64,000 nt of DNA from Leucoraja ocellata (taxonomy: Eukaryota), in assembly GCA_036785375.1 (NCBI GenBank), contig JAWMAR010000070.1, positions 7,068,001 through 7,132,000 of the forward strand, given 5' to 3'. A program made the position numbers and the translations under genes. How positions within the stretch are numbered: the first letter of the stretch is position 1; every line of letters starts with the position of its first letter. The notes under the pieces were generated by a model. The model was not told the origin of the DNA, searched no databases, and saw nothing but the letters and a program-made list of their open reading frames with translations. This document shows, piece by piece, positions 19,756-58,881 of the stretch.

Positions 19756-19829
19756 GTTCCTGTGGGTGAAACAATGGGTCACCTTATTGCAACTCAGTAG
19801 GATTCATGATGACATTCCCTGAACCCGCC

Positions 19830-23367: not shown

Positions 23368-23907
23368 ATGGGACTGCAGAGATGGATAGGATTCATGGTC
23401 CTTGTGGAGATGGTGTGGCAAGTCTCCGTAACTGGAACAGGTCCGATCTCCAGAGAATGGGGAGAGGAAGCAAACTTGGCCGGGCGGAACGCACGGGCGT
23501 ATTTCAAAGTCACCAATAAACCGCTTCCAAGATGCACGAACGAGTCAGATTCTGATGCCATCAGTCATCACCCATCACCGATTAACAAGAAGGTGCTCGT
23601 TGCATCTCTGGGCGGTTCTGTTACGTTGCCATGTAATATATCCATCCTTAAAAATCATTACAGGTTTGTTGAATGGATAAAAGATGGTGTTGAAATTGCC
23701 CATTTCCATGAGAGAGCGTATGCGCATTATACGGGATCTGATGTTCACTGGAAGTTCGTTGATCACGACGTCTATGTGACTCAGGACGCCACGTTGCTCC
23801 TGACAGGTGTAAAAGAGGAAGATAAAGGGACGTATTCCTGTGTTTGGTCCGTGTATAGAGATAGACCGTTTTGTGAATTATTGATGCAGCTGATGATCTC
23901 TCACTGA
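23368..23907 (+). CDS. Secreted single V-type Ig-domain precursor, type B copy 1 (B1), 179 aa; the RxxR site is altered to RAYFK
   Basis: Shared leader, then GGSVTLPC, VEWIKDG, DATLLL, EDKGTYSC and PFCELL. The stop follows ISH and there is no TM segment. Confidence 0.85.
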   Translation: MGLQRWIGFMVLVEMVWQVSVTGTGPISREWGEEANLAGRNARAYFKVTNKPLPRCTNESDSDAISHHPSPINKKVLVASLGGSVTLPCNISILKNHYRFVEWIKDGVEIAHFHERAYAHYTGSDVHWKFVDHDVYVTQDATLLLTGVKEEDKGTYSCVWSVYRDRPFCELLMQLMISH

Positions 23908-24129
23908 TTCAGCAGGGCCAGTCCCAGGGTCAGTAGCAAAGTCTAGTTTAGTTTAGTTTTGTTCAGAGGTACAACAGGGAAACAAGCCCTTCGGCCCACA
24001 GAGTCAATGGGGACCAGTGATCACCCCATATACTAGTTCTATCCCACACACTAGATACAATTTACACTGACCAATTAACCTACAAACCTGCACGTCTCTG
24101 GGGTGTGGGACGAAACCGGAGCACCCGGA

Positions 24130-24610
24130 TTCCAAAGAGGAAGGAAGATTCCAAGGGGAGTTAGGGGCGACCGTGGCTGACAAGGGAAGTCAGGGACACT
24201 ATCACAATAAAAGAGAACAGGTATAACGTTGCAAAGATGAGCGGAAAGCCAGGGGATTGGGTAACTCTTTTAAAGAGCAACAGAAGATAACTAAAAAAGC
24301 AATACGGGGAGAAATGATGAGGTATGAAGGTAAGATAGCCAAGAATAGTAAGGAGGATCGTAAAAGCTTCTTTAGATATGTGAAAAAAATTAGTTCAGAC
24401 TAAAATTGGACCTTTATAGACTAAAAACTTTGGATCCGTCTTCACTAAGGAGAACACAAACAATCTCCCTGATGTATTAGTGGTCAGAGGATCTGGGGAC
24501 AACGGAGAGCCAGTGGATGTAGTGTACCTGGACTTGCAGGAAGTATTTGATAAGGTCCCACATAGGAGATTAGTGGGCAAAATTAGAGCACATGGTATTG
24601 GGGGAAGGGC
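24130..24610 (+). mobile_element. Internally deleted CR1 ORF2 fragments in the predicted 3' UTR of B genes (also ~31265-31745, 37770-38315, 44320-44865)
   Basis: PWLTREV.., FGSVFTKE and [17 protein letters not shown] motifs. Confidence 0.7.
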
Positions 24611-24751
24611 CTGTTTCCATATTGTTTGACTCTGACACTAAGTAGGGAAGAGTAAAGGTATAAAGATGAGCAGCGTGGAAGGTGTGAGCGTGGATCGCAT
24701 GCAGTGAGGAGAACTGACCTTGCTTGCTCCGGTAAATGTACGTTTAATGTA

Positions 24752-24757
24752 AATAAA
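24752..24757 (+). terminator. Candidate polyadenylation signal of B1 (B2 31888-31893, B3 38456-38461, B4 45006-45011)
   Basis: AATAAA conserved with the type A genes, followed by a GT-rich element. Confidence 0.5.
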
Positions 24758-24871
24758 CTTTCTTCTGCCTGCCCTGAAGACAGCCGGTGTGAGTGATTCT
24801 TTGTACGCCAGCATTGAGTTGGGTGTGAACTTTGTGCAACTTTTGCTCACTACGGGCAACATCGCCGGATT

Positions 24872-25030
24872 AAAGGGCCTGTCCCACGAGCATGCGACTC
24901 CATGCGGCAAGCGCGACCTAACGTGGTCACTTGAGCCGTACGGCCTCGCGGGGCCGGTCCCACTTTGATCGCCGGAGCCGTATGGAGTTGTGTGGAGCTG
25001 GTCCCGACATCGCGCGGGGCTCTGAAAAAC
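24872..25030. mobile_element. Truncated PIF/Harbinger-like non-autonomous element end (in each B unit; related end at ~20846-21022)
   Basis: Begins taaAGGGCCTGTCCCAC and interrupts the conserved 3' block relative to type A. Only one end is visible. Confidence 0.4.
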
Positions 25031-25039
25031 TGAATATGT

Positions 25040-25324
25040 TAGGATATGGAAACAGGTTCTTCGGCCCACCGAGTCTAACCCAACCAGTGATCACCCCTAC
25101 ACTAGTTCTAACCTACACACTACGGACAATTTACTGAAGCCAATTAACCTACAAATCTACACATCTTTGTAATCTGAAAGGAAACCAGAGCACCCGGAGG
25201 AAACCCACGTGGTCACAGGGACAATGTACATACACTGTACAGACAGTGCCCGTAGTTACCATCGAAGGCGGGTCTCTAGCGCTGTAAGGCAGCAACTCTA
25301 CCGCTGCGCCACTGTACCGCCCCT
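25040..25324 (-). mobile_element. tRNA-derived SINE (also ~32175-32460, 38745-39000, 45295-45578; 3' partial copies just after each B/C stop codon)
   Basis: Head ggggcggtacagtggcgcagcggtagagttgctgcc..gacccgccttcgat has A-box- and B-box-like motifs. Confidence 0.7.
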
Positions 25325-26111
25325 GCATTGCCCTCGTGCATTGTTAGGGCTGCTGATTAGAGTCCAGTTTTGACCCTCGTTGGGTGTCAATTGTGGTTGT
25401 CAAGGAGCTTTCTTACCTCCGTATGGAGCCTGGTCTTCCAGTTATAGACCCACACCACCCTGGCCACACTCTCGTATCACCACTACTGAGGGGAAAGTAC
25501 AGGAGCCTGAGAACCGTGAGCTCCAGGTTCAAGAGCAGCTTCTTCCCAGCAAGCACAAGGTTGTTGAACCAGCCTGCACAACCCCAACCATAACCCTACG
25601 CCACTCACCACAACCCTACACAACCCTGATGGACACTGCACCACTGGTGATATAAAGTTACTGTGCAGACCAAGTGCAGATCCATTGGGTCTGCTCCCCC
25701 AACGCAATATTCCACCACTCACCCGCTCCCCAACACTATATTCCACCACTCACTCATAGCCCCCAACTCTGGAGGCGCGGCTCATTTCGCCGCATCCCCT
25801 CTTCCTACTCTTCACCCTCCCTCTTCAATACCTAGAGGGAGAGAGGAGGGGGAGAGAAGGAGAGAGGCAGAGAGAAAGGAGGTAGAGAGAGAGTGGGAAG
25901 GGGTAGAGGGAGAAGGAGGGTGGTAGTGGGGGGGGGGGAGGGATTAAATACATTCTTCTCAAGCTTACCCCCAGTCTAGTTCAGTCAAAAACCACTGAGT
26001 CAAGCACTGGAACAACTAATCTTTATTTTTGGATTGTACATCAAATTCCCCTACACGATACCTAAACCACTGCGGGTTCAATCCTTGTATCTGCTTGGCC
26101 AAGCCCTTCAG

Positions 26112-27907
26112 GTCCCTTGCAGTCAGAAGCAAGTGAATTGATCATGGGGAACAAGGACATGGCAGACCAATTGAATAACTACTTTGGTTCTGTCTTCACT
26201 AAGGAAGACATAAATAATCTGCCGGAAATAGCAGGGGACCGCGGGTCAAATGAGATGGAGGAACTGAGTGAAATCCAGGTTAGCCGGGAAGTGGTGGTAG
26301 GTAAATTGAATGAATTAAAAGCCGATAAATCCCCAGGGCCAGATAGGTTGCATCCCAGAGTACTTAAGGAAGTAGCCCCAGAAATAGTGGATGCATTAGT
26401 GATAATTTTTCAAAACTCTTTAGATTTGGAAGTAGTTCCTGAGGATTGGAGGGTAGCTAATGTAACACCACATTTTAAAAAGAGAGGGAGAGAGAAAATG
26501 GGGAATTACAGACCAGTTAGTCTAACGTCGGTAGTGGGGAAACTGCTAGAATCAGTTATTAAAGATGGGATAGTAGCACATTTGGAAAGTGGTGAAATCA
26601 TTGGACAAGGTCAGCATGGATTTATGAAGGGTAAATCATGTCTGACGAATCTTATAGAATTTTTCGAGGATGTAACTAGTAGAGTGGATAAGGGAGAACC
26701 AGTGGATGTGTTGTATCTGGACTTCCAGAAGGCTTTCAACAAGGTCCCACATAAGAGATTAGTATACAAACTTAAAGCACACGGTATTGGGGGTTCAGTA
26801 CTGATGTGGATAGAGAACTGGCTGGCAGACAGAAAGCAAAGAGTAGGAGTAAACGGGTCCTTTTCAGAATGGCAGGCAGTGACTAGTGGGGTACCGCAAG
26901 GCTCAGTTCTGGGACCCCAGCTATTTACGGTATATATTAATGATTTGGACGAGGGAATTGAATGCAACATCTCCAAGTTTGCGGATGACACAAAGCTGGG
27001 GGCAGTGTTAGCTGTGAGGAGGATGCTAGGAGGCTGCAAGGTGACTTGGATAGGCTGGGTTGGTGGGCAAATGCATGGCAGATGCAGTATAATGTGGATA
27101 AATGTGAGGTTATCCACTTTGGTGGCAAAAACAGGAAATTAGACTATTATCTGAATGGTGGCCGATTAGGAAAGGGGGAGATGCAACGAGACCTGGGTGT
27201 CATGGTACACCAGTCATTAAAAGTAGGCATGCAGGTGCAGCAGGCAGTGAAGAAGGCGAATGGTATTTTAGCATTCATAGCAAAAGGATTTGAGTATAGG
27301 AGAAGGGAGGTTCTACTGCAGTTGTACATGCTCTTGGTGAGACCACACCTGGAGTATTGCGTACAGTTTGGTCTCTTAATCTGAGGAAAGACATTCTTGC
27401 CATAGAGGGAGTACAGAGAAGGCTCACCAGACTGATTCCTGGGATGTCAGGACTTTCATATGACGAAAGACTGGATAGACTCGGTTTGTACTCGCTAGAA
27501 TTTAGAAGATTGAGGGGGGATCTTATAGAAACTTACAAAATTCTTAAGGGGTTGGACAGGCTAGATGCAGGAAAATTGGTCCCGATGTTGGGGAAGTCCA
27601 GAACAAGGGGTCACAGTTTAAGGATAAGGGGGAAATCTTTTGGGGCCGAGATGAGGAAAACTTTTTTCACACAGCGTGGTGAATCTCTGGAATTCTCTGC
27701 CGCAGAAGGTAGTTGAAGCCAGTTCATTGGCTATATTTAAGAGGGAGTTAGATGTGGCCCTTGTGGCTAAATGGATCAGGTGGTATGGAGAGAACGCAGG
27801 TACAGGATACTGAGTTGGATGATCTGCCATGATCATATTGAATGGCAGTGCAGGCTCGAAGGGCCGAATGGCCTACTCCTGCACCTGTACCTATATATGT
27901 TTCTATG
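26112..27907 (+). mobile_element. 5'-truncated CR1 LINE, 1.8 kb, RT domain frameshifted
   Basis: [37 protein letters not shown] and FADD motifs plus 3' UTR. It is flanked by a TTCAG direct repeat, and the empty site is visible at ~33390 and ~39934. Confidence 0.9.
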
Positions 27908-28577
27908 TTCAGCCTCGTGCAAGCAGAAACACTCCAAAAGGTCACGCTGTCCCAAGGATTCTTCCAGAAGATCGACAAAGGACCTCGTGGGGGCTGCCTT
28001 TTATAAGTCCCCGAACCTTGAGGGGCCGAACTACATAGGGGTGGTCTCTTTACAATCCAATCAAACATATTAATTACATCAGTATATTATAGACAGTTCC
28101 CCAGACCACTAACAGTCTCCCACACATTGTTTCAGGAGAAGCTTCTGGAAGATGCTAACTTAACTTGAATAATGCAACATTTACCCTGGAATTCAAACAA
28201 ACCTGCCAGGGCTCAACACTTTAGCCAATCAACAAACAGTAGGATAACTGCCTGGCACATTATGTACAATATTTACAATGCTGTTACAGTAATCTAATCA
28301 ACCATGCATTTACACTTCATTGGAGGTCATCTCCATGCATGGAAATCGGTATCAAAACATGGGGGGGGCACAATTCCATGGCGGCACACATGCACACGCG
28401 TGCATGCGGCACACACGCGAGGATTCAGCCATGGGCCCTGTGGACGGTAACATCGGGAACTGACTTGGTTGGTGACCGACTCCGAACTCCAGCAACAGCA
28501 GCTTCGTCCGCCCGGAATCGTGGGGCTTGAATCGGCCCGTTCGCGGGGCCTTTCATCGCCCGGCGGGGGTTTCAACA

Positions 28578-29342
28578 TTGGTATTGATGTGGATAGAGAA
28601 CTGGCTGGCAGACAGAAAGCAAAGAGTAGGAGTAAACGGGTCCTTTTCAGAATGGCAGACAGTGACTAGTGGGGTACTGCAAGGCTCAGTGCTGGGACCC
28701 CAGCTATTTACAATATATATTAATGATTTGAATGAGGGAGTTGAATGCAACATCTCCAAGTTTGCGGATGACACGAAACTGGGGGGCAGTGTTAGCTGTG
28801 AGGAGGACGCTAGGAGGCCGCAAGGTGACTTGGATAGGTTGGGTTAGTGGGAAAATGAATGGAAGATGCAGTATAATGTGGATAGATGTGAGGTTATCCA
28901 TTTTGGTGGCAAAAACAGGAAAGTAGATTATTATCTGAATGGTGGCCGATTAGGAAAAGGGGAGATGCAACGAGACCTGGGTGTCATGGTACACCGGTCA
29001 TTAAAAGTGGGCATGCAGGTGCAGCAGGCAGTGAAGAAAGAGAATGGTATGTTAGCTTTCATTGCAAAAGGATTTGAGTATAAGAGCAGGGAGGTTCTAC
29101 TGCAGTTGTACAAGGTCTTGGTGAGACCACACCTGGAGTATTGCGTACAGTTTTGGTCTCATAATCTGAGGAAAGACATTCTTGCCATAGAGAGAGTACA
29201 GAGAAAGTTCACCAGACTGATTCCTGGGATGGCAGGACTTTATGGCATACTGAGTTGGATGATCAGTATAATCATATTAAATGGCAGTGCAGGCTCGAAG
29301 GGCCGAATGGCCTACTCCTGCACCTATTTTCCATGTTTCTAT
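28578..29342 (+). mobile_element. Internally deleted CR1 RT fragment (also 34038-34822, 40582-41366 and a further-deleted 48948-49166)
   Basis: [17 protein letters not shown] and YCVQFWS motifs joined directly to the 3' UTR. Confidence 0.85.
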
Positions 29343-29630: not shown

Positions 29631-29964
29631 CGAGACGTGGTGGAGACACAAGCAGGATGTGTGGGGCGCCTGGTTGGCCGCTGGCAGCTGGGATGACGTT
29701 GTTCTTGTTAAACGTTAACGGCTGATGCAACGACACGTTTGGCAGAGGGTGGAGAGGTCGCGGCTGACTCCGGCCAATGCTCCGTGGGAGGCAGTGATTG
29801 GTTGAATGTACGTGAGGGCAGACAATGAGGGGCAGGAGAAGCCGGGAGTCGGTATAAAAGGAGCGAGCGATGGCAGGAGATGAGAACAAGACCGACCCCG
29901 TCACCCTGTGTGGAGACTCCGGAGCTGGTAACCAACCCTGTGGATCCTTCAAGTGTCTGTGAGT
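29631..29964 (+). promoter_or_regulatory. Promoter and first exon of B2
   Basis: ERSE at 29783-29801, TATAAAA at 29853-29859 and donor at 29959. Confidence 0.7.
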
Positions 29965-30506
29965 GATGGGGGTGGGATTGTCTCTGTTCACTGTTCCCCC
30001 AGTTCAGAAGCCTGATAGCAGAGGGGAAGAAGCTGTTCCTGAGTCTGGTGGTGCGCGCTTTCAAGCTTCTGTACCTTCTGCTAGACAGGACCAGGGAGAA
30101 GGAGGAATGACAGGGGTGGGACAAGTGATGGAGTCATAGAGTCACAGCGAGACCTTCGGCCCAACTTGCCCGCGCCCACCAACGTGTCCCCATCAATACT
30201 AGACCCACCTGCCTGCGTTTGGCCCTTACCCCTCTAATCCTGTCCTATCAATGTACCTGTCTAACTGTTTCTTAATCATTGTGATAGTACCTGCCTCAAC
30301 TACCTCTTCCGGCAGCTCGTTCCAAACACCCTCCACCCTTTGTGTAAAAAAAGTCACCCCTCAGTTTCCCATGAAATCTTTCCCCCCCTCACCTTAAACC
30401 GATGTCCTCTGGTTCTCGATTCCCCAACTCTGGGCGGGTTCAGGGAATGTCATCATGAATCCTACTGAGTTGCAATAAGGTGACCCATTGTTTCACCCAC
30501 AGGAAC

Positions 30507-31043
30507 ATGGGGCTGCAGAGATGGATAGGATTCATGGTCCTTGTGGAGATGGTGTGGCAAGTCTCCGTAACTGGAACAGGTCCGATCTCCAGCGAATGGG
30601 GAGAGGAAGCAAACTTGGCCGGGTGGAATGCACGGGCCCCTCGGCAAGTCACCGATGAACAGCTTCCAAGATGCACGGACAAGTCAGATTCTGATGCCAT
30701 CAGTCATCACCTATCAACGATTAACAAGAAGGTGCTCGTTGCATCTCTGGGTGGTTCTGTTACGTTGCCATGTAATGTATCCAACGTTGACAATAGTCCC
30801 ACGGTTACATGGAAAAAAGATGGTGTTGAAATTGCCTATTTCCATAGTAGAGTGCATGAGCGTTATAAGGGATCTGATGTTCATTGGAAGTTCGTGGAAC
30901 GAAACGTCCTTTGGAAACAGGACGCCACGTTGCTCCTGACAGGTGTAAAAGAGGAAGATACAGGGACGTATTCCTGTGTTTGGATCAAGTATCCTAAGAA
31001 ACCGTTTTGTGAATTATTGATGCAGCTGATGATCTCTCACTGA
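30507..31043 (+). CDS. Secreted single V-type Ig-domain precursor, type B copy 2 (B2), 178 aa
   Basis: Leader, RAPR|Q, TLPC, VTWKKDG, EDTGTYSC and PFC. Confidence 0.85.
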   Translation: MGLQRWIGFMVLVEMVWQVSVTGTGPISSEWGEEANLAGWNARAPRQVTDEQLPRCTDKSDSDAISHHLSTINKKVLVASLGGSVTLPCNVSNVDNSPTVTWKKDGVEIAYFHSRVHERYKGSDVHWKFVERNVLWKQDATLLLTGVKEEDTGTYSCVWIKYPKKPFCELLMQLMISH

Positions 31044-34000
31044 TTCAGCAGGGCCAGTCCCAGGGTCAGTAACAAAGTCTAGTTTAGTTTAGTTCCGTTC
31101 AGAGGTACAACAGGGAAACAAGCCCTTCGGCCCACAGAGTCAATGGGGACCAGTGATCACCCCATATACTAGTACTATCCCACACACTAGATACAATTTA
31201 CACTGACCAATTAACCTACAAACCTGCACGTCTCTGGGGTGTGGGACGAAACCGGAGCTCCCGGATTCCAAAGAGGAAGGAAGATTCCAAGGGGAGTTAG
31301 GGGCGACCGTGGCTGACAAGGGAAGTCAGGGACACTATCACAATAAAAGAGAACAGGTATAACGTTGCAAAGATGAGCGGAAAGCCAGGGGATTGGGTAA
31401 CTCTTTTAAAGAGCAACAGAAGATAACCAAAAAAGCAATACGGGGAGAAAAGATGAGGTATGAAGGTAAGATAGCCAAGAATAGAAAGGAGGATCGTAAA
31501 AGCTTCTTTAGATATGTGAAAAAAATTAGTTCAGACTAAAATTGGTCCTTTATAGACTAAAAACTTTGGATCCGTCTTCACTAAGGAGAACACAAACAAT
31601 CTCCCTGATGTACTAGTGGCCAGAGGATCTGGGGACAATGGAGAGCCAGTGGATGTAGTGTACCTGGACTTGCAGGAAGTATTTGATAAGGTCCCACATA
31701 GGAGATTAATGGGCAAAATTAGAGCACATGGTATTGGGGGAAGGGCCTGTTTCCATATTGTTTGACTCTGACACTAAGTAGGGAATAGTAAAGGTATAAA
31801 GATGAGCAGCGTGGAAGGTGTGAGCGTGGATCACATGCAGTGAGGAGAACTGACCTTGCTTGCACCGGTAAATGTACGTTTAATTTAAATAAACTCTCTT
31901 CTGCCTGCCCTGAAGACAGCCGGTGTGAGTGATTCTTTGTACGCCAGCATTGAGTTGGGTGTGAACTTTGTGCAACTTTTGCTCACTACGGGCAACATCG
32001 CCGGATTAAAGGGCCTGTCCCACGAGCATGCGACTGCATGCGGCAAGCGCGACCTAACGTGGTCACTTGAGCCGTACGGCCTCGCGGGGCCGGTCCCACT
32101 TTGATCGCCGGAGCCGTATGGAGTTGTGTGGAGCTGGTCCCGACATCGCGCGGGGCTCTGAAAAACTGAATATGTTAGGATATGGAAACAGGTTCTTCGG
32201 CCCACCGAGTCTAACCCAACCAGTGATCACCCCTACACTAGTTCTAACCTACACACTAGGGACAATTTACTGAAGCCAATTAACCATCAAATCTACACGT
32301 CTTTGTAATCTGAAAGGGAACCAGAGCACCCGGAGGAAACCCACATGGTCACAGGGACAATGTACATACACTGTACAGACAGTGCGCGTAGTTACAATCG
32401 AAGGCGGGTCTCTAGCGCTGTAAGGCAGCAACTCTACCGCTGCGCCACTGTACCGCCCCTGCATTGCCCTCGTGCATTGTTAGGGCTGCTGATTAGAGTC
32501 CAGTTTTGACCCTCGTTGGGTGTCAATTGTGGTTGTCAAGGAGCTTTCTTACCTCCATATGGAGCCTGGTCTTCCAGTTATAGACCCACACCACCCTGGC
32601 CACACTCTCTTATCACCACTACTGAGGGGAAGGTACAGGAGCCTGAGAACCGTGAGCTCCAGGTTCAAGAGCAGCTTCTTCCCAGCAAGCACAAGGTTGT
32701 TGAACCAGCCTGCACAACCCCAACCACAACCCTACGCCACTCACCACAACCCTACACAACCCTGATGGACACTGCACCACTGGTGATGCCCCACGTACGT
32801 TGTCTTGTACTATCATGGTCTGGTTTACTTGGAATAACTGAGACCTTATTGTGTACTTATGGTGTAAGTATATAATCATGATAGGCCAGGGTAGACAGTG
32901 GAGGGCTGCCACTACAGAGCCACCCATAGACCTGATAGAATTATATAAAGTTACTGTGCAGACCAAGTACAAACCCAACGCAATATTCCACCACTCATCC
33001 ATTCCCCAACGCTATATTCCACCACTCACTCATAGCCCCTAATTGTGCAGGAGCGGCTCATTTCTCCGTTTCCCCTCTTCCTCCTCTTCACCCTCCCTCT
33101 TCAATACCTAGAGAGGGAGGAGGGGTAGAGGGAGGGCGTAGAGAGGGAGAGAGGCAGAGAGAAAGGGGGTAGAGAGAGAGTGGGAAGGGGTAGAGGGTGA
33201 GGGGGGGGTAGAGTGGGGTGGAGGGATTAAATACATTATTTTCAAGCTTACCCCCAGTCTAGTTCAGTCAAAAACCACTGAGTCAAGCACTGGAACAATT
33301 AATCTTTATTTTTGGACTGTACATCTAATTCAACTACACGATACCTAAACCACTGCGGGTTCGATCCTTGTATCTGCTTGGCCAAACCCTTCAGCCTCGT
33401 GCAAGCAGAAACACTCCAAAAGGTCACGCTGTCCCAAGGATTCTTCCAGAAGATCGACAAAGGACCTCGTGGGGGCTGCCTTTTATAAGTCCCCGAACCT
33501 TGAGGGGCCGAACTACATAGGGGTGGTCTCTTTACAATCCAATCAAACATATTAATTACATCAGTATATTATAGACAGTTCCCCAGACCACTAACAGATC
33601 CCATACATTGTTTCAGGAGAAGCTTCTGGAAGATGCTAACTTAACTTGAATAATGCAACATTTACCCTGGAATTCAAACAAACCTGCCAGTGCTCAACAC
33701 TTTAGCCAATCAACAAACAGTAGGATAACTGCCTGGCACATTATATACAATATTTACAATGCTGTTGCAGTAATCCAATCAACCATGCATTTACACTTCA
33801 TTGGAGGTCATCTCCTTGCACGGAAATCGGCATCAAAACATGGGGGTGCACAATTCCATGGCGGCACACATGCACACGTGTGCATGCGGCACACACGCGA
33901 GGATTCGGCCATGGGCCCTGTGGACGGTAACATCGGGAGCTGACTTGGTTGGTGACCGACTCCGAACTCCAGCAACAGCAGCTTCGTCCGCCCGGAATCG

Positions 34001-35079
34001 TGAGGCTTGAATCGGCCCGTTCGCGGGGCCTTTCATCGCCCGACGGGGGTTTCAACATTGGTATTGATGTGGATAGAGAACTGGCTGGCAGACAGAAAGC
34101 AAAGAGTAGGAGTAAACGGGTCCTTTTCAGAATGGCAGGCAGTGACTAGTGGGGTACTGCAAGACTCAGTGCTGGGACCCCAGCTATTTACGATATATAT
34201 TAATGATCTGGATGAGGGAGTTGAATGCAACATCTCCAAGTTTGCAGATGACACGAAATGGGGGGCAGTGTTAGCTGTGAGGAGGATGCTAGGAGGCTGC
34301 AAGGTGACTTGGATATGTTGGGTGAGTGGGCAAATGCATGGAAGATGCAGTATAATGTGGATAAATGTGAGGTTATCCATTTTGGTGTAAAAAACAGGAA
34401 AGTAGATTATTATCTGAATGGTGGCCGATTAGGAAAAGGGGAGATGCAACGAGACCTGGGTGTCATGGTACACCAGTCATTAAAAGTGGGCATGCAGGTG
34501 CAGCAGGCAGTGAAGAAAGAGAATGGTATGTTAGCATTCATAGCAAAAGGATTTGAGTATAAGAGCAGGGAGGTTCTACTGCAGTTGTACAGGGTCTTGG
34601 TGAGACCACACCTGGAGTATTGCGTACAGTTTTGGTCTCCTAATCTGAGGAAGGACATTCTTGCCATAGAGGGAGTACAGAGAAGGTTCACCAGACTGAT
34701 TCCTGGGATGTCAGGACTTTATGGCATACTGAGTTGGATGATCAGTATAATCATATTAAATGGCAGTGCAGGCTCGAAGGGCCGAATGGCCTACTCCTGC
34801 ACCTATTTTCTACGTTTCTATGGGAGCCTCGATCGCCTCGATGCAGCAGTTTGATTTTAAGCCGCTCGGGCGCTGAAAGGCCCCGCGAACGGGACGATTC
34901 TGCCCATAGAAAGCGTCTGATAAAGTCCGGAACACAAAACATGGGCGGGGGGGGGAATCGTCCCCACCTCCCAAAGCATAGGGGACGTGCCCCCTGTCCC
35001 CCCCCCCAGGATTTCTGCCCATGGCGGTGACGATATCTCCTTCACCGCCGCAGTCTCGACGCCTCTTTGATGGCCGCGA

Positions 35080-35753
35080 AAAACCCCATGTGGGGCGTAG
35101 AAGGCCGGGTCGGATAAAGCGGAAAGTTAATTTCAATGAGGTCATCCCCCTGACATCACTGGAAGCTGCTGGTCGACCACTCCCCCTTTGTGACATCACT
35201 CGAAGCGGGGTGAAGGTTTGCCGTTTAATAAGTTGGTTTTCACTATTTTTAAAACGCTATAACTTGTGAACTACAGCATGTAATGTGAAGTGGAGCAGTT
35301 TATTTTGTCAAAGGGGTTAATGTGATTAATAATGTGCGGAGGAGGGGAGGAGGAGAGGGGAGAGAAGGAGGAGGGTAAAGACGAGGGGGAGGGAGTGTAA
35401 GAGACTCGCCTGCGCAGTTGTGGGGTATGGGTGAGTGGTGGAATATTACGTTGGGGGGACGGGTACATCGCAAAGGAATCTCATTTAGATTTCTTGGGAG
35501 GAGGCTTTTCATTGTGGGGGGTGGAATTGCTGAGAGGTTTCATTTACTCCTTATTTATAAAATAATTACGATTGTGGGGAGGGGTGGGTTGGGGGCGGGG
35601 GCTCCCCGTTTCATTGTGGGGGGGTGGAGTAAGAGAGAGGTTTCATTTCCAGAATTTTCCTTGCTAGGGGATGGGGTGAGTATTGTGGGGTATGGGTGAG
35701 TGGTGGAATATTACGTTGGGGGAACGGGACCCAACGGGTCCCACTTGGTCTAG
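35080..35753 (+). mobile_element. Putative non-autonomous Helitron-like element (3' end defined, 5' end approximate); copies end at 42297 and 50107
   Basis: Hairpin GGGACCC-AAC-GGGTCCC (35726-35742), a 7-nt gap, then CTAG|T. Confidence 0.45.
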
Positions 35754-36136
35754 TTATCATTATTTATTTAATGTTTCACGTTTACACCAATCTCTCCACC
35801 ACCACGAACAAGCAGCACAAGACGCGACAAGACAGACACCATTGTATGCAGATGCCGAGAAGTGTGATCAGCTCTGGCTGAACAACTAATCTTGTGTGTG
35901 GATTCGATAAGCAGAAGATTTAATGTCATAGTGTTATACAGTCATAGAGTGATACAGCATGGAAACAGGCCCTTTGGCCCAACGTGCCCACATTGGACAA
36001 CATGTCCCAGCTACACTAGTCCCACCTGTCCACGTTTGGTCCATATCCCTCCAAATCTGACCTATCCCTGTTCCTGTCTAGCTGTTTCTTAAACGTCGGG
36101 ATAGTTTCTGCCTCAACTGCGATGGGTTGACCAGAA

Positions 36137-36470
36137 CGAGACGTGGTGGAGACACAAGCAGGATGTGTGGGGCGCCTGGTTGGCCGCTGGCAGCTGGGAT
36201 GACGTTGTTCTTGTTAAACGTTAACGGCTGATGCAACGACACATTTGGCAGAGGGTGGAGAGGTCGCGGCTGACTCCGGCCAATGCTCCGTGGGAGGCAG
36301 TGATTGGTTGAATGTACGTGAGGGCAGACAATGAGGGGCAGGAGAAGCCGGGAGTCGGTATAAAAGGAGCGAGCGATGGCAGGAGATGAGAACAAGACCG
36401 ACCCCGTCACCCTGTGTGGAGACTCCGGAGCTGGTAACCAACCCTGTGGATCCTTCAAGTGCCTGTGAGT
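36137..36470 (+). promoter_or_regulatory. Promoter and first exon of B3
   Basis: ERSE at 36289-36307, TATAAAA at 36359-36365 and donor at 36465. Confidence 0.7.
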
Positions 36471-37013
36471 GATGGGGGTGGGATTGTCTCTGTTCACTGT
36501 TCCCCCAGTTCAGAAGCCTGATAGCAGAGGGGAAGAAGCTGTTCCTGAGTCTGGTGGTGCGCGCTTTCAAGCTTCTGTATCTTCTGCTAGACAGGACCAG
36601 GGAGAAGGAGGAATGACCGGGGTGGGACAAGTGATGGAGTCATAGAGTCACAGCGAGACCTTCGGCCCAACTTGCCCGCGCCCACCAACGTGTCCCCATC
36701 AATACTAGACCCACCTGCCTGCGTTTGGCCCTTACCCCTCTAATCCTGTCCTATCAATGTACCTGTCTAACTGTTTCTTAATCATTGTGATAGTACCTGC
36801 CTCAACTACCTCTTCCGGCAGCTCGTTCCAAACACCCTCCACCCTTTGTGTAAAAAAGTCACCCCTCAGTTTTCCATGAAATCTTTCCCCCCCCCTCGCC
36901 TTAAACCGATGTCCTCTGGTTCTCGATTCCCCAACTCTGGGCGGGTTCAGGGAATGTCATCATGAATCCTACTGAGTTGCAATAAGGTGACCCATTGTTT
37001 CACCCACAGGAAC

Positions 37014-37550
37014 ATGGGACTGCAGAGATGGATAGGATTCATGGTCCTTGTGGAGATGGTGTGGCAAGTCTCCGCAACTGGAACAGGTCCGATCTCCAGA
37101 GAATGGGGAGAGGAAGCAAACTTGGCCGGGCGGAACGCACGGGCCCCTCGACAGGTCACCAATGAAACGCTTCCAAGATGCACGAACGAGTCAGATTCTG
37201 ATGCCATCAGTCATCACCTATCAACGATTAACAAGAAGGTGCTCGTTGCATCTCTGGGTGGTTCCGTTACTTTGCCATGTAATGTATCCAACGTTGACAA
37301 TAGTCCCGAGGTTACATGGAATAAAGATGGTGTTGAAATTGCCTATTTCCATAGTAGAGTGCATGAGCGTTATACGGGATCTGATGTTCACTGGAAGTTC
37401 GTGCAACGAAACGTCCTTTGGGAACAGGACGCCACGTTGCTCCTGACAGGTGTAAAAGAGGAAGATAAAGGGACGTATTCCTGTGTTTGGATCAAGTATC
37501 GTCAGAAACCGGTTTGTGAATTATTGATGCAGCTGATGATCTCTCACTGA
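37014..37550 (+). CDS. Secreted single V-type Ig-domain precursor, type B copy 3 (B3), 178 aa
   Basis: Leader, RAPR|Q, four Cys, EDKGTYSC and sequons NET, NES and NVS. Confidence 0.85.
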   Translation: MGLQRWIGFMVLVEMVWQVSATGTGPISREWGEEANLAGRNARAPRQVTNETLPRCTNESDSDAISHHLSTINKKVLVASLGGSVTLPCNVSNVDNSPEVTWNKDGVEIAYFHSRVHERYTGSDVHWKFVQRNVLWEQDATLLLTGVKEEDKGTYSCVWIKYRQKPVCELLMQLMISH

Positions 37551-37849
37551 TTCAGCAGGGCCAGTCCCAGGGTCAGTAACAAAGTCTAGTCTAGTTTAGT
37601 TACGTTCAGAGGTACAACAGGGAAACAAGCCCTTCGGCCCACAGAGTCAATGGGGACCAGTGATCACCCCATATACTAGTTCTATCCCACACACTAGATA
37701 CAATTTACACTGACCAATTAACCTACAAACCTGCACGTCTCTGGGGTGTGGGACGAAACCGGAGCTCCCGGATTCCAAAGAGGAAGGAAGATTCCAAGGG
37801 GAGTTAGGGGCGACCGTGGCTGACAAGGGAAGTCAGGGACACTATCACA

Positions 37850-37911
37850 AATGCATTTCGTTGTCTCTGTTCTGTACACTGACAATGACAATTAAATTGA
37901 ATCTGAATCTG
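37850..37911 (+). mobile_element. ~62-bp extreme 3' end of a Rex1-type LINE (also 44399-44460)
   Basis: Matches the 3' end and (GAATCT)n tail of the element at 58882-59830. It is absent at the equivalent site in the B1 and B2 units. Confidence 0.75.
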
Positions 37912-40900
37912 ATAAAAGTGAACAGGTATAACGTTGCAAAGATGAGCGGAAAGCCAGGGGATTAGGTAACTCTTTTAAAGAGCAACAGAAGATAACTAAA
38001 AAAGCAATACGGGGAGAAAAGATGAGGTATGAAGGTAAGATAGCCAAGAATAGAAAGGAGGATCGTAAAAGCTTCTTTAGATATGTGAAAAAAATTAGTT
38101 CAGACTAAAATTGGTCTTTATAGACTAAAAACTTTGGATCCGTCTTCACTAAGGAGAACACAAACAATCTCCCTGATGTACTAGTGGCCAGAGGATCTGG
38201 GGACAACGGAGAGCCAGTGGATGTAGTGTACATGGACTTGCAGGAAGTATTTGATAAGGTCCCACATAGGAGATTAGTGGGCAAAATTAGAGCACATGGT
38301 ATTGGGGGAAGGGCCTGTTTCCATATTGTTTGACTCTGACACTAAGTAGGGAATAGTAAAGGTATAAAGATGAGCAGCGTGGAAGGTGTGAGCGTGGATC
38401 GCATGCAGTGAGGAGAACTGACCCTGCTTGCACCGGTAAATGTACGTTTAATGTAAATAAACTTTCTTCTGCCTGCCCTGAAGACAGCCGGTGTGAGTGA
38501 TTCTTTGTACGCCAGCATTGAGTTGGGTGTGAACTTTGTGCAACTTTTGCTCACTACGGGCAACATCGCCGGATTAAAGGGCCTGTCCCACGAGCATGCG
38601 ACTCCATGCGGCAAGCGCGACCTAACGTGGTCACTTGAGCCGTACGGCCTCGCGGGGCCGGTCCCACTTTGATCGCCGGAGCCGTATGGAGTTGTGTGGA
38701 GCTGGTCCCGACATCGCGCGGGGCTCTGAAAAACTGAATATGTTAGGATATGGAAACAGGTTCTTCGGCACCCCTACACTAGTTCTAACCTACACACTAG
38801 GGACAATTTACTGAAGCCAATTAACCATCAAATCTACACGTCTTTGTAATCTGAAAGGGAACCAGAGCACCCGGAGGAAACCCACATGGTCCCAGGGACA
38901 ATGTACATACACTGTACAGACAGTGCCCGTAGTCACCATCGAAGGCGGGTCTCTAGCGCTGTAAGACAGCAACTCTACCGCTGCGCCACTGTACCGCCCC
39001 TGCATTGCCCTCGTGCATTGTTAGGGCTGCTGATTAGAGTCCAGTTTTGACCCTCGTTGGGTGTCAATTGTGGTTGTCAAGGAGCTTTCTTACCTCCGTA
39101 TGGAGCCTGGTCTTCCAGTTATAGACCCACACCACCCTGGCCACACTCTCTTATCACCACTACTGAGGGGAAGGTACAGGAGCCTGAGAACCGTGAGCTC
39201 CAGGTTCAAGAGCAGCTTCTTCCCAGCAAGCACAAGGTTGTTGAACCAGCCTGCACAACCCCAACCACAACCCTACGCCACTCACCACAACCCTACACAA
39301 CCCTGATGGACACTGCACCACTGGTGATGCCCCACGTACGTTGTCTTGTACTATCATGGTCTGGAATAACTGAGACCTTATTGTGTACTTATGGTGTAAG
39401 TATATAATCATGATAGGCCAGGGTAGACAGTGGAGAGCTGCCACTACAGAGCCATCCATAGACCTGATAGAATTATATAAAGTTACTGTGCAGACCAAGT
39501 ACAAACCCAACGCAATATTCCACCACTCACCCATTCCCCAACGCTATATTCCACCACTCACTCATAGCCCCTAATTGTGCAGGAGCGGCTCATTTCTCCG
39601 TTTCCCCTCTTCCTCCTCTTCACCCTCCCTCTTCAATACCTAGAGAGGGAGGAGGGGTAGAGGGAGGGGGTAGAGAGGGAGAGAGGCAGAGAGAAGGGGT
39701 AGAGAGAGAGTGGGAAGGGGTAGAGGGTGAGGGGGGGGGGGGGGGGGGGGGGTAGAGTGGGGTGGAGGGATTAAATACATTATTTTCAAGCTTACCCCCA
39801 GTCTAGTTCAGTCAAAAACCACTGAGTCAAGCACTGGAACAATTAATCTTTATTTTTGGATTGTACATCTAATTCAACTACACGATACCTAAACCACTGC
39901 GGGTTCGATCCTTGTATCTGCTTGGCCAAGCCCTTCAGCCTCGTGCAAGCAGAAACACTCCAAAAGGTCACGCTGTCCCAAGGATTCTTCCAGAAGATCG
40001 ACAAAGGACCTCGTGGGGGCTGCCTTTTATAAGTCCCCGAACCTTGAGGGGCCGAACTACATAGGGGTGGTCTCTTTACAATCCAATCAAACATATTAAT
40101 TACATCAGTATATTATAGACAGTTCCCCAGACCACTAACAGATCCCATACATTGTTTCAGGAGAAGCTTCTGGAAGATGCTAACTTAACTTGAATAATGC
40201 AACATTTACCCTGGAATTCAAACAAACCTGCCAGTGCTCAACACTTTAGCCAATCAACAAACAGTAGGATAACTGCCTGGCACATTATATACAATATTTA
40301 CAATGCTGTTGCAGTAATCCAATCAACCATGCATTTACACTTCATTGGAGGTCATCTCCTTGCACGGAAATCGGCATCAAAACATGGGGGTGCACAATTC
40401 CATGGCGGCACACATGCACACGTGTGCATGCGGCACACACGCGAGGATTCGGCCATGGGCCCTGTGGACGGTAACATCGGGAGCTGACTTGGTTGGTGAC
40501 CGACTCCGAACTCCAGCAACAGCAGCTTCGTCCGCCCGGAATCGTGAGGCTTGAATCGGCCCGTTCGCGGGGCCTTTCATCGCCCGACGGGGGTTTCAAC
40601 ATTGGTATTGATGTGGATAGAGAACTGGCTGGCAGACAGAAAGCAAAGAGTAGGAGTAAACGGGTCCTTTTCAGAATGGCAGGCAGTGACTAGTGGGGTA
40701 CTGCAAGACTCAGTGCTGGGACCCCAGCTATTTACGATATATATTAATGATCTGGATGAGGGAGTTGAATGCAACATCTCCAAGTTTGCAGATGACACGA
40801 AATGGGGGGCAGTGTTAGCTGTGAGGAGGATGCTAGGAGGCTGCAAGGTGACTTGGATATGTTGGGTGAGTGGGCAAATGCATGGAAGATGCAGTATAAT

Positions 40901-42680
40901 GTGGATAAATGTGAGGTTATCCATTTTGGTGTAAAAAACAGGAAAGTAGATTATTATCTGAATGGTGGCCGATTAGGAAAAGGGGAGATGCAACGAGACC
41001 TGGGTGTCATGGTACACCAGTCATTAAAAGTGGGCATGCAGGTGCAGCAGGCAGTGAAGAAAGAGAATGGTATGTTAGCATTCATAGCAAAAGGATTTGA
41101 GTATAAGAGCAGGGAGGTTCTACTGCAGTTGTACAGGGTCTTGGTGAGACCACACCTGGAGTATTGCGTACAGTTTTGGTCTCCTAATCTGAGGAAGGAC
41201 ATTCTTGCCATAGAGGGAGTACAGAGAAGGTTCACCAGACTGATTCCTGGGATGTCAGGACTTTATGGCATACTGAGTTGGATGATCAGTATAATCATAT
41301 TAAATGGCAGTGCAGGCTCGAAGGGCCGAATGGCCTACTCCTGCACCTATTTTCTACGTTTCTATGGGAGCCTCGATCGCCTCGATGCAGCAGTTTGATT
41401 TTAAGCCGCTCGGGCGCTGAAAGGCCCCGCGAACGGGACGATTCTGCCCATAGAAAGCGTCTGATAAAGTCCGGAACACAAAACATGGGCGGGGGGGGGA
41501 ATCGTCCCCACCTCCCAAAGCACTGGGGACGTGCCCCCTGTCCCCCCCCCCAGGATTTCTGCCCATGGCGGTGACGATATCTCCTTCACCGCCGCAGTCT
41601 CGACGCCTCTTTGATGGCCGCGAAAAACCCCATGTGGGGCGTAGAAGGCCGGGTCGGATAAAGCGGAAAGTTAATTTCAATGAGGTCCTCCCCCTGACAT
41701 CACTGGAAGCTGCTGGTCGACCACTCCCCCTTTGTGACATCACTCGAAGCGGGGTGAAGGTTTGCCGTTTAATAAGTTGGTTTTCACTATTTTTAAAACG
41801 CTATAACTTGTGAACTACAGCATGTAATGTGAAGTGGAGCAGTTTATTTTGTCAAAGGGGTTAATGTGATTAATAATGTGCGGAGGAGGGGAGGAGGAGA
41901 GGGGAGAGAAGGAGGAGGGTGTAGACGAGGGGGAGGGAGTGTAAGAGACTCGCCTGCGCAGTTGTGGGGTATGGGTGAGTGGTGGAATATTACGTTGGGG
42001 GGACGGGTACATCGCAAAGGAATCTCATTTAGATTTCTTGGGAGGAGGCTTTTCATTGTGGGGGGTGGAATTGCTGAGAGGTTTCATTTACTCCTTATTT
42101 ATAAAATAATTACGATTGTGGGGAGGGGTGGGTTGGGGGCGGGGGCTCCCCGTTTCATTGTGGGGGGGTGGAGTAAGAGAGAGGTTTCATTTCCAGAATT
42201 TTCCTTGCTAGGGGATGGGGTGAGTATTGTGGGGTATGGGTGAGTGGTGGAATATTACGTTGGGGGAACGGGGCCCAACGGGTCCCACTTGGTCTAGTTA
42301 TCATTATTTATTTAATGTTTCACGTTTACACCAATCTCTCCACCACCACGAACAAGCAGCACAAGACGCAACAAGACAGACACCATTTTATGCAGATGCC
42401 GAGAAGTGTGATCAGCTCTGGCTGAACAACTAATCTTGTGTGTGGATTCGATAAGCAGAAGATTTAATGTCATAGTGTTATACAGTCATAGAGTGATACA
42501 GCATGGAAACAGGCCCTTTGGCCCAACTTGCCCACATTGGACAACATGTCCCAGCTACACTAGTCCCACCTGTCCACGTTTGGTCCATATCCCTCCAAAT
42601 CTGACCTATCCCTGTTCCTGTCTAGCAGTTTCTTAAACGTCGGGATAGTTTCTGCCTCAACTGCGATGGGTTGACCAGAA

Positions 42681-43014
42681 CGAGACGTGGTGGAGACACA
42701 AGCAGGATGTGTGGGGCGCCTGGTTGGCCGCTGGCAGCTGGGATGACGTTGTTCTTGTTAAACGTTAACGGCTGATGCAACGACACGTTTGGCAGAGGGT
42801 GGAGAGGTCGCGGCTGACTCCGGCCAATGCTCCGTGGGAGGCAGTGATTGGTTGAATGTACGTGAGGGCAGACAATGAGGGGCAGGAGAAGCCGGGAGTC
42901 GGTATAAAAGGAGCGAGCGATGGCAGGAGATGAGAACAAGACCGACCCCGTCACCCTGTGTGGAGACTCCGGAGCTGGTAACCAACCCTGTGGATCCTTC
43001 AAGTGTCTGTGAGT
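42681..43014 (+). promoter_or_regulatory. Promoter and first exon of B4
   Basis: ERSE at 42833-42851, TATAAAA at 42903-42909 and donor at 43009. Confidence 0.7.
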
Positions 43015-43558
43015 GATGGGGGTGGGATTGTCTCTGTTCACTGTTCCCCCAGTTCAGAAGCCTGATAGCAGAGGGGAAGAAGCTGTTCCTGAGTCTGGTG
43101 GTGCGCGCTTTCAAGCTTCTGTACCTTCTGCTAGAGAGGACCAGGGAGAAGGAGGAATGACCGGGGTGGGACAAGTGATGGAGTCATAGAGTCACAGCGA
43201 GACCTTCGGCCCAACTTGCCCGCGCCCACCAACGTGTCCCCATCAATACTAGACCCACCTGCCTGCGTTTGGCCCTTACCCCTCTAATCCTGTCCTATCA
43301 ATGTACCTGTCTAACTGTTTCTTAATCATTGTGATAGTACCTGCCTCAACTACCTCTTCCGGCAGCTCGTTCCAAACACCCTCCACCCTTTGTGTAAAAA
43401 AGTCACCCCTCAGTTTCCCATGAAATCTTTCCCCCCCCCCTCGCCTTAAACCGATGTCCTCTGGTTCTCGATTCCCCAACTCTGGGCGGGTTCAGGGAAT
43501 GTCATCATGAATCCTACTGAGTTGCAATAAGGTGACCCATTGTTTCACCCACAGGAAC

Positions 43559-44095
43559 ATGGGACTGCAGAGATGGATAGGATTCATGGTCCTTGTGGAG
43601 ATGGTGTGGCAAGTCTCCGCAACTGGAACAGGTCCGATCTCCAGAGAATGGGGAGAGGAAGCAAACTTGGCCGGGCGGAACGCACGGGCTCCTCGACAAG
43701 TCACCAATGAAACGCTTCCAAGATGCACGAACGAGTCAGATTCTGATGCCATCAGTCATCACCTATCAACGATTAACAAGAAGGTGCTCGTTGCATCTCT
43801 GGGTGGTTCTGTTACTTTGCCATGTAATGTATCCAACGTTGACAATAGTCCCGAGGTTACATGGAATAAAGATGGTGTTGAAATTGCCTATTTCCATAGT
43901 AGAGTGCATGAGCGTTATACAGGATCTGATGTTCACTGGAAGTTCGTGCAACGAAACGTCCTTTGGGAACAGGACGCCACGTTGCTCCTGACAGGTGTAA
44001 AAGAGGAAGATAAAGGGACGTATTCCTGTGTTTGGATCAAGTATCGTCAGAAACCGGTTTGTGAATTATTGATGCAGCTGATGATCTCTCACTGA
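43559..44095 (+). CDS. Secreted single V-type Ig-domain precursor, type B copy 4 (B4), protein identical to B3
   Basis: Same translation as B3, with a few synonymous differences. Confidence 0.85.
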   Translation: MGLQRWIGFMVLVEMVWQVSATGTGPISREWGEEANLAGRNARAPRQVTNETLPRCTNESDSDAISHHLSTINKKVLVASLGGSVTLPCNVSNVDNSPEVTWNKDGVEIAYFHSRVHERYTGSDVHWKFVQRNVLWEQDATLLLTGVKEEDKGTYSCVWIKYRQKPVCELLMQLMISH

Positions 44096-58872: not shown

Positions 58873-58881
58873 CCACCACAG

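What the first reader, a model, noticed from the sequence alone, without database searches (positions are those of the whole stretch)
23368..44095. Antibody-like loop hypervariability among type B paralogs despite near-identical framework and flanks
Seen: B1 versus B2-B4 differences cluster in the BC loop (NISILKNHYRFVEW vs NVSNVDNSP[T/E]VTW), C'C'' (HFHERAYAHY vs YFHSRVHERY), DE (DHDVYVTQ vs [E/Q]RNVLW[K/E]Q) and FG loop (SVYRDRPF / IKYPKKPF / IKYRQKPV). Framework codons, introns and 3' flanks are almost identical. B2 and B3 differ at 13 mature-domain residues, many of them charge-changing, and B2 lacks two N-glycosylation sequons. Inference: diversifying selection acts on a CDR-like binding surface.
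Basis: partly seen in the sequence, partly recalled or inferred. Interest (0 to 1): 0.78.

Follow-up and report, generated by a model that had tools for sequence, protein, structure and literature searches.

The report
Skate secreted nectin-derived Ig family
A skate carries a tandem cluster of small secreted proteins built from one nectin-type immunoglobulin domain whose binding surface has been driven apart by natural selection while the front end of the genes is kept identical; they are not antibodies, and most likely act as soluble decoys or recognition molecules.

Summary
B1-B4 are four of eight paralogs (five B, one of them broken; three A) of a skate gene whose whole coding sequence (signal, acidic propeptide, RxxR|Q site, one IgV domain with an extra Cys pair, stop) lies in one exon. 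B1 differs from B2/B3 at 25 of 39 loop residues but 2-4 of 68 framework residues. Site models give omega about 9 at a quarter of codons (LRT 31; 14.7 with multi-base mutations). The signal rests on B1 versus B2-B4: without B1 it is gone, B3 and B4 encode the same protein, and type A variation is not loop-clustered. 'Antibody-like' is the wrong frame: no RSS, no J or C parts, and the domain is nectin/PVR-derived (all 14 PDB hits of the electric-ray relative are PVR/nectins; it keeps both lock-and-key motifs). Two variable clusters lie on the nectin lock and key. A 1-kb cassette from promoter to propeptide is 95-100% identical even between A and B (mature domains about 30%), and the B1 loop set recurs in little skate on a shuffled framework: gene conversion, with selection protecting the binding surface. 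Closest analogue: bat/horse PSG-like secreted decoys. Tissue and ligand are unknown.

The parts
22476..23497 (+). Homogenised 5' cassette of B1 (promoter, exon 1, intron, signal peptide, propeptide); 97.5% identical to the inverted copy at type A gene A2 (19626-20648)
22715..22721 (+). TATAAAA box with two CCAAT boxes upstream; the 225 nt around it are identical in all 8 copies but for two single-base variants
   Evidence: promoter role inferred
22732..22820 (+). Exon 1 of B1 (from an upstream in-frame ATG to the GT donor); 5' UTR or a 31-residue N-terminal extension
   Evidence: RefSeq models and a Logan protein join this exon to exon 2
22821..23363 (+). Single intron of B1, GTGAGT...CCACAG, 543 nt
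23368..23907 (+). B1 CDS, 179 aa: signal, propeptide, one IgV domain, stop; loop type shared with L. erinacea LOC129708938/939; RxxR|Q site lost
23494..23505 (+). Codons 43-46: RxxR|Q convertase-like site in the other 7 copies (RAYF in B1); coincides with the 3' edge of the homogenised cassette
   Evidence: cleavage inferred
23638..23667 (+). BC loop and start of strand C (residues 91-100), variable cluster 1
23701..23727 (+). C'-C'' region (residues 112-120), variable cluster 2; aligns to the nectin/PVR AX6G lock
23761..23781 (+). DE loop (residues 132-138), variable cluster 3; outside the nectin lock and key
23848..23865 (+). F end and FG loop (residues 161-166), variable cluster 4; aligns to the T(F/Y)P key, with Tyr163 invariant in B1-B4
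24206..24211 (+). First AATAAA downstream of B1 (candidate poly(A) signal)
30507..31043 (+). B2 CDS, 178 aa (intron 29959-30502); K-Y-P at the key position; one sequon
37014..37550 (+). B3 CDS, 178 aa (intron 36465-37009)
43559..44095 (+). B4 CDS, same protein as B3, 4 synonymous differences (intron 43009-43554)
51380..51829 (+). B5: a third, strongly acidic B loop type (43-47% identical to B1-B4 in the mature domain), frameshifted by a 2-base gap late in the V domain
273..788 (-). A1 CDS, 171 aa, basic mature domain (intron 793-1378)
19243..19755 (-). A2 CDS, 170 aa, keeps the AX6G motif; head to head with B1 (intron 19760-20304)
57395..57910 (-). A3 CDS, 171 aa (intron 57915-58500)

Best explanation
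A batoid (skate/ray) family of germline-encoded, secreted single-IgV proteins derived from domain 1 of a nectin/PVR-type adhesion receptor. Shown: the anatomy (signal, acidic propeptide, RxxR|Q, V domain with two extra conserved Cys, no membrane anchor), the nectin affinity of the domain, positive selection at the loop end and front face in B1 versus B2-B4, and a 5' cassette kept identical across very different paralogs. Inferred: all copies are co-expressed from the same promoter in one secretory cell type; the precursor is cleaved after RxxR to release a 14-15 kDa domain; gene conversion homogenises everything except the binding surface, where selection fixes and preserves distinct specificities (B1 type, B2-4 type, B5 type, A types); the ligands are non-self and changing, most likely microbial or parasite adhesins that use nectin-like surfaces, so that the proteins work as soluble decoys in the manner proposed for bat PSG-like proteins.
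For: Anatomy: (4 Cys invariant in 16 of 16 rows; RxxR|Q in 14 of 19). Nectin origin: all 14 PDB sequences hit at E<=1e-5 by the Narcine bancroftii relative are PVR, nectin-2 or nectin-1; the family profile's best PDB hits are PVR (8e-14); Foldseek's top hit for the B2 model is nectin-1 D1; Atlas structure neighbours of the Narcine protein are mostly nectin-2/3/4, TIGIT and CD96; Narcine keeps AX6G and TYP, and 3 of 8 type A rows keep AX6G. Selection: M8a vs M8 LRT 31.4, omega 9 at 25% of codons; 14.7 (M1a vs M2a, p=6e-4) with double and triple mutations allowed; top loops omega 17 (p=0.0025) against 0.9 elsewhere; 0 of 42 simulations with neutral old loops reached the observed LRT (maximum 15.6); type A also selected (LRT 11.9; 7.0 with multi-base mutations). 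Conversion: A2 vs B1 0-5% different per 60-nt bin from 22533 to 23492, then 33-55% across the mature domain; 17 of 27 informative residues, all between 91 and 166, split B2/B3 from B1/Le938/Le939, while the other 10 give 7 further, conflicting groupings. Transcription: a Logan protein from a 900-nt contig reads across the exon 1-2 junction. Precedent: PMC5594555, PMC7042247, PMC9263721.
Against: No ligand, tissue or binding datum. The selection test uses my own codon-model code, 4 sequences and 3 distinct proteins on one fixed tree; whole-gene pairwise counts are not significant (B1-B2 p=0.064, B1-B3 p=0.14); with a free local rate the test of omega>1 is only p=0.026; without B1 there is no signal (p=0.61). 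Type A changes are not loop-clustered (7 of 35 loop vs 20 of 65 other columns). B types have lost the lock Gly and the key Thr, so they may no longer bind as nectins do; BC and DE clusters lie outside the lock and key. Three RNA runs showed 0, 0 and at most about 1x depth on exon 2, so constitutive broad expression is unlikely. If the upstream ATG is used the precursor could be a type II membrane protein.
Confidence: 0.45

Rival explanations
1. Same genes and same selection, but a reproductive role: a seminal-fluid, oviducal or egg-surface recognition protein diversifying through sexual selection or species recognition.
For: Near absence from 3 of 3 RNA runs laid fits a gland-restricted gene; a testis-specific CEACAM paralog escapes conversion in just this pattern, with conversion in leader and introns but not Ig exons (PMC7042247, abstract); nectins act in sperm-Sertoli adhesion (recalled).
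Against: Several co-existing specificities per genome and a B1 loop type shared with L. erinacea at 91-93% identity fit a maintained repertoire better than species-specific divergence; tissues of the runs are unknown.
Confidence: 0.22
2. A defensive skin or gland secretion acting directly on microbes or on predators/parasites (peptide-precursor-like family: constant signal and propeptide, variable mature part), not a decoy.
For: Prepro architecture with the conversion boundary at the processing site; net charge of the mature domains runs from -15 (B5) to +11 (type A); conserved-signal/variable-mature families are typical of conotoxins and frog skin peptides (recalled).
Against: No activity data; the fold is an adhesion-type V domain and no toxin-like hit appeared.
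Confidence: 0.13
3. Soluble modulators of the animal's own nectin/TIGIT/CD226-type receptors, each paralog co-evolving with a host receptor.
For: Tyr163 at the key aromatic position is invariant in B1-B4 and both L. erinacea B1-type proteins, and B2 reads K-Y-P; soluble CD155 isoforms exist (PMC9263721, passages).
Against: The residues around the key and the lock are the fastest-changing ones, hard to square with a conserved host partner.
Confidence: 0.1
4. No positive selection: the loops are old, neutrally diverged islands left behind while gene conversion erased divergence elsewhere.
For: Mosaic framework; synonymous divergence in the CDS above the flanks; 15 of 46 differing B1-B2 codons have 2-3 changes; rate-mixture test only p=0.026.
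Against: Inside the loops dN 0.56-0.63 vs dS 0.16, omega 17 with their own branch lengths; simulation of this very model gave LRT at most 15.6 in 42 runs vs 31.5 seen; islands that fall on four separate loops need selection to persist.
Confidence: 0.08
5. An antibody-like antigen receptor V gene that rearranges or is somatically mutated.
For: V-set fold and variation at BC, C'C'', DE and FG positions.
Against: No RSS near any gene (0 exact matches; one poor match at 55936 in a mismatch scan); stop codon right after strand G, no FGxG, no leader intron, no C exon found in six frames; AID hotspots not enriched at variable G/C sites (4 of 24, 8 of 23, 10 of 27 vs 26-31% background); nectin, not Ig/TCR, is the nearest kin.
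Confidence: 0.02

Closest known systems
Nectin / poliovirus receptor (CD155) family, domain 1
   Same: V-set domain with nectin-type C'-C''-D pattern; AX6G and T(F/Y)P intact in the Narcine relative, AX6G in some type A, key aromatic in B1-B4.
   Different: No C2 domains, transmembrane segment or tail; added propeptide and extra Cys pair; signal and V domain in one exon; tandem expansion under positive selection.
Bat and horse PSG-like secreted CEACAMs (PMC5594555)
   Same: Secreted, often single-IgV proteins derived from a pathogen-exploited adhesion receptor, tandemly expanded, many pseudogenes, positive selection on the binding face, proposed decoys.
   Different: Parent is CEACAM, not nectin; PSG genes keep separate leader, N and A exons; no propeptide; placental mammals, whereas skates lay eggs. 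An analogue, not a homologue.
Ruminant CEACAM32 (PMC7042247)
   Same: Gene conversion in leader and intron but not in Ig exons, attributed to selection.
   Different: A single membrane-bound, testis-specific paralog.
Skate MDIR and carp SITR (PMC3031540, passages)
   Same: Germline multigene Ig-type receptors of fishes; SITR is soluble.
   Different: CD300/TREM/pIgR-like, with two Ig domains (SITR) or activating/inhibitory receptor forms (MDIR); no CD300-type hit led or 65. Sequences not compared directly.
Immunoglobulin / IgNAR / TCR V genes
   Same: V-set fold; variation at the loop end.
   Different: No RSS, D/J or constant parts, no leader intron, germline variation only.

Membership tests
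Rearranging antigen receptors (Ig, IgNAR, TCR) | RSS flanking the V segment | tested here: not met
   (consensus recalled)
Rearranging antigen receptors (Ig, IgNAR, TCR) | J-type FGxG strand and constant-domain exons | tested here: not met
   stop follows strand G; no other Ig ORF seen among six-frame ORFs and tblastn hits of the window (output was cut)
Rearranging antigen receptors (Ig, IgNAR, TCR) | Somatic hypermutation, AID hotspot bias | tested here: inconclusive
   no germline hotspot enrichment; no cDNA to test somatic change
Nectin/PVR family | D1 nearest to nectin/PVR by sequence and fold | tested here: met
   (B2 alone gives PVR at E 4e-6 among generic Ig hits)
Nectin/PVR family | AX6G lock and T(F/Y)P key (PMC10486284) | tested here: inconclusive
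   both in Narcine; AX6G in 4 of 19 rows; full key in 1 of 19; neither complete in B1-B4
Nectin/PVR family | V-C-C ectodomain, transmembrane segment, cytoplasmic tail | tested here: not met
   single V domain then stop
Nectin/PVR family | Synteny or tree placement with a named nectin locus | not testable with these tools
   no genome held
PSG / secreted CEACAM | CEACAM N-domain homology and leader-N-A exon layout | tested here: not met
   no CEACAM among listed hits; single coding exon; canonical B-F Cys pair present
PSG / secreted CEACAM | Secreted single-V product under positive selection (functional likeness) | tested here: met
   secretion predicted from sequence only
MDIR / SITR (CD300-like) | CD300/TREM-type V domain | tested here: inconclusive
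   no such hit at the top; MDIR sequences not in hand
Virus-derived Ig gene | Closer to viral Ig proteins than to host proteins | tested here: not met
   viral fold hits generic, 10-23% identity

The most novel reading that the evidence does not exclude
Skates and rays have turned a nectin domain into a germline repertoire of secreted, proteolytically matured single-domain binders: one conversion-maintained expression and secretion cassette fused to interchangeable V domains whose whole loop end and front face are under selection, perhaps a dozen or more per genome, acting as an innate 'nanobody-like' defence or recognition system independent of Ig/TCR.
Probability: 0.25. Interest if true: 0.8.

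Novelty: new variant of a known kind. Interest (0 to 1): 0.58.

Why it matters
It points to an undescribed, batoid-restricted family (annotated only as 'uncharacterized' or 'nectin-1-like') that parallels mammalian PSG-like decoys but arose from nectin, a receptor class used by herpesviruses and poliovirus. It gives a clean case of selection holding a binding surface against gene conversion, with the conversion boundary at the propeptide cleavage site, and supplies small disulfide-rich single V domains with naturally diversified surfaces whose ligands can be sought directly.

Tried and rejected
No whole genome is held, so neighbours and copy number outside the window could not be read. Run search with B1 exon 2: no RNA holder listed among 24 runs; this is no evidence on expression. 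A2+B1 complex prediction: no verdict, score 0.01 against a mark of 0.34, alignments not used; no evidence either way. Atlas feature searches gave only generic V-set clusters. Three word-seeded homolog searches found 7, 7 and 8 proteins, all skate or electric ray; the profile search of 1.84 billion representatives listed 150 of 1606 hits, of which only P0007 and P0066 were single-stretch matches over most of the profile, so weaker shark relatives may be hidden below the list. The B1 model was poor (pLDDT 56) and was not searched. No coordinates are returned, so surface contiguity was not measured. An IL-1 receptor D1 origin (similar extra Cys pattern, recalled) was considered; IL-1R family hits were weak (E about 1e-3) against PVR at 8e-14. 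Viral origin rejected. An in-frame intron between signal and V domain was considered and dropped: RefSeq models and the Logan protein read straight through. Three look-ups of earlier scan findings returned nothing.
Full report
Setting. The window is repeat-rich vertebrate DNA with no whole genome held. Its closest database proteins are nine 'uncharacterized' Leucoraja erinacea RefSeq models of one contig (LOC129708937-942, 945, 946; seven cluster representatives and two further members across, one of the representatives being from Rhinoraja longicauda), so the source is a skate. No window protein is more than 93% identical to an L. erinacea one in the mature domain; whether the window is that species or a relative I cannot tell.

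Anatomy. Eight copies of one gene lie in the window: B1-B4 and a frameshifted B5 on the plus strand, A1-A3 on the minus strand. Each has the same promoter (two CCAAT boxes, TATAAAA), a short first exon, one GT-AG intron of 543-586 nt and a second exon that holds the whole reading frame from MGLQRW. The product is a hydrophobic signal-like segment, an acidic propeptide, an RxxR|Q site (14 of 19 family rows; lost in B1), one V-set domain (Pfam V-set above cut-off in 5 of 6 window proteins scanned, the exception being truncated B5) and a stop. Four cysteines are invariant in 16 of 16 aligned rows: the canonical B-F pair and a second pair (Cys56, Cys169), which I infer forms a second disulfide. 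RefSeq models and a Logan protein from a 900-nt contig join exon 1 to exon 2 exactly at these splice sites, which shows a spliced transcript of a type A gene exists. They begin at an upstream ATG only 17 nt after the start of the TATA box; by usual spacing (recalled) transcription would start downstream of it, so I favour a secreted protein from the second Met, but a 31-residue extension and a type II precursor are not excluded.

The observation. All quoted peptides are present. B1 differs from B2 and from B3 at 25 of 39 loop columns but at 4 and 2 of 68 framework columns; flanks differ by 0-1.7%. With loops taken from the DSSP of an AlphaFold model of B2 (mean pLDDT 65.5, 70-90 in the V domain), 18 of 32 top-loop columns vary against 12 of 72 others (p=7e-5). 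The 13 mature B2-B3 differences and the two lost sequons are right. But B3 and B4 are the same protein, so the 'hypervariability' is two loop types, plus a third in B5.

Selection. I wrote GY94 site models (F3x4, naive empirical Bayes, fixed tree), as no PAML is on hand. B1-B4: M7 vs M8 LRT 32.2, M8a vs M8 31.4, omega 9 at 25% of codons; 19 sites above 0.9, 16 of them in the V domain (95-104, 115, 132-138, 161-165) and 3 at 45, 46, 52. Allowing double and triple mutations leaves LRT 14.7 (p=6e-4). Given their own branch lengths, top loops have omega 17 (p=0.0025), the rest of the V domain 0.89 and the signal/pro/linker 0.90. Simulating neutral but older loops gave LRT at most 15.6 in 42 runs (2 of 42 above 5.99) against 31.5 observed. 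Against: whole-gene Nei-Gojobori counts are not significant (p=0.064, 0.14, 0.087); a mixture with a free local rate gives only p=0.026; B2-B4 alone give p=0.61. Type A is also selected (LRT 11.9; 7.0 with multi-base mutations) but its changes are spread over the domain (7 of 35 loop vs 20 of 65 other columns). So selection is real but rests mostly on one branch, and loop clustering is particular to B1 versus B2-B4.

Gene conversion. From 22533 to 23492 B1 and A2 differ by 0-5% per 60-nt bin, then by 33-55% across the mature domain, where the proteins are about 30% identical. The edge is at the RxxR|Q codons. The 225 nt around the TATA box are the same in all 8 copies but for two single-base variants. 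Among B1, B2, B3 and the two B1-type L. erinacea proteins, 17 of 27 informative residues, all between positions 91 and 166, separate B2/B3 from the rest, while the other 10 fall into 7 conflicting groupings. B1 differs from Le939 and Le938 at 4 and 6 of 35 loop columns, from B2 and B3 at 24 of 35. The loop set thus travels as a stable block on a shuffled framework. Synonymous divergence in the CDS exceeds that of the flanks (p=0.015, 3e-4, 0.02 for three pairs), as expected if coding tracts resist homogenisation.

What the domain is. A profile search of 1.84 billion representatives (150 of 1606 hits listed) gave one distant single-domain match across signal, pro and V: a Narcine bancroftii protein named 'nectin-1-like', with the same layout and cysteines. 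All 14 PDB sequences it hits at E<=1e-5 are PVR, nectin-2 or nectin-1; the family profile's top hits are PVR (8e-14); the B2 model's top Foldseek hit is nectin-1 D1, with PD-L1 close behind; Atlas structure neighbours are mostly nectins, TIGIT and CD96. PVR-family binding uses an AX6G lock and a T(Y/F)P key (PMC10486284, PMC9263721; passages). Narcine has both; AX6G survives in 3 of 8 type A rows; in B the lock region (112-120) and the key flanks (161, 162, 164-166) are two of the four variable clusters, while the key aromatic (Tyr163) is fixed in B1-B4. BC and DE clusters lie at the same end of a V domain (topology from general knowledge; not measured, as no coordinates are returned). There is no RSS, no J or C part, and no AID-hotspot bias. 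Viral fold matches are generic. It is therefore nectin-derived but not a nectin, and not an antigen receptor.

Expression and copy number. Three RNA runs of unknown tissue (5-25% of each read) gave no reads on exon 1 and depths of 0, 0 and at most about 1 on exon 2; repeats in the stretch were well covered. One DNA run showed a contig identical to B1's loop region (depth 61), another B1-like variant with 8 differences (89), B 3' flank pieces (336-352), the signal piece (748) and exon 1 (1084). The tool warns that depth is no copy number, and this run may be the window's own source; at most it suggests more copies than the eight seen.

How it most likely works. One promoter and secretion cassette, kept uniform by conversion, drives a set of different V domains in one secretory tissue; convertase cleavage frees a small two-disulfide domain; selection has set up and preserves distinct binding surfaces over the ancestral nectin face and the neighbouring loops. 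The ligands are most likely changing non-self molecules. Nectin-1 and CD155 domain 1 are the entry receptors of HSV and poliovirus (PMC6825474, passages), soluble CD155 has been proposed as a virus sink (PMC9263721, passages), and bat PSG-like genes are secreted single-IgV derivatives of CEACAM under diversifying selection, proposed as decoys (PMC5594555, abstract and passages). A ruminant CEACAM shows conversion in leader and intron but not Ig exons (PMC7042247, abstract and outline). Structure, ancestry, selection and conversion are shown; secretion, cleavage, co-expression and ligand are inferred. A reproductive role is the main rival.

Novelty. Six accessions of the family occur in 0 papers, and six topic searches (listings and abstract starts only) showed no description of it; the library lacks most subscription journals and I opened no supplements, where these loci may be listed. 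MDIR and SITR are CD300-like (PMC3031540, passages). Verdict: a real, apparently undescribed batoid family, a new variant of a known kind (secreted decoy-like derivatives of adhesion receptors), with the antibody analogy overstated.

Noticed in passing
window 2725-14760 and 60802-64000: LTR-type element in tandem: three copies of a 670-nt terminal repeat (2725, 8408, 14091) with two internal copies 99.8% identical; a decayed integrase fragment at 6289-6567 (Pfam rve E 1e-4, below cut-off). A further copy starts at 60802.
   Followed up: partly
window 1-5923 vs 57082-64000: The A1 gene plus flanking element recurs at A3 (96-99.7% identical), suggesting the whole A/B cluster is itself repeated with a period of about 57-58 kb.
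   Followed up: no
window 31343-39328 vs 37912-45905: B3 and B4 units are 98.2% identical over 8 kb; a recent tandem duplication or an assembly of two haplotypes cannot be told apart here.
   Followed up: partly
window 19607-20648 and 22476-23497: A2 and B1 are head to head, their 5' cassettes forming a 1-kb inverted repeat about 1.8 kb apart; A2 carries the B-type intron (545 nt) while A1 and A3 carry a different 586-nt intron, a sign of conversion from B into A2.
   Followed up: partly
window 23494-23505: B1, L. erinacea LOC129708938 and LOC129708937 replace the RxxR|Q site with aromatic residues (AYFK, SYWH); codons 45-46 score as positively selected, so processing itself may be a variable trait.
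   Followed up: partly
window 22782, 36462 region (exon 1): Both single-base variants in exon 1 among the 8 copies are synonymous in the upstream reading frame, a faint hint that the 31-residue extension is translated.
   Followed up: no
window 26066-27139 and related copies: LINE reverse-transcriptase fragments (Pfam RVT_1 E 4e-27) fill the spacers between B genes.
   Followed up: no
P0017, P0020, P0021: Top multi-domain profile hits are lungfish (Protopterus annectens) proteins with 8-15 tandem V domains; they score by repetition and were not studied.
   Followed up: no
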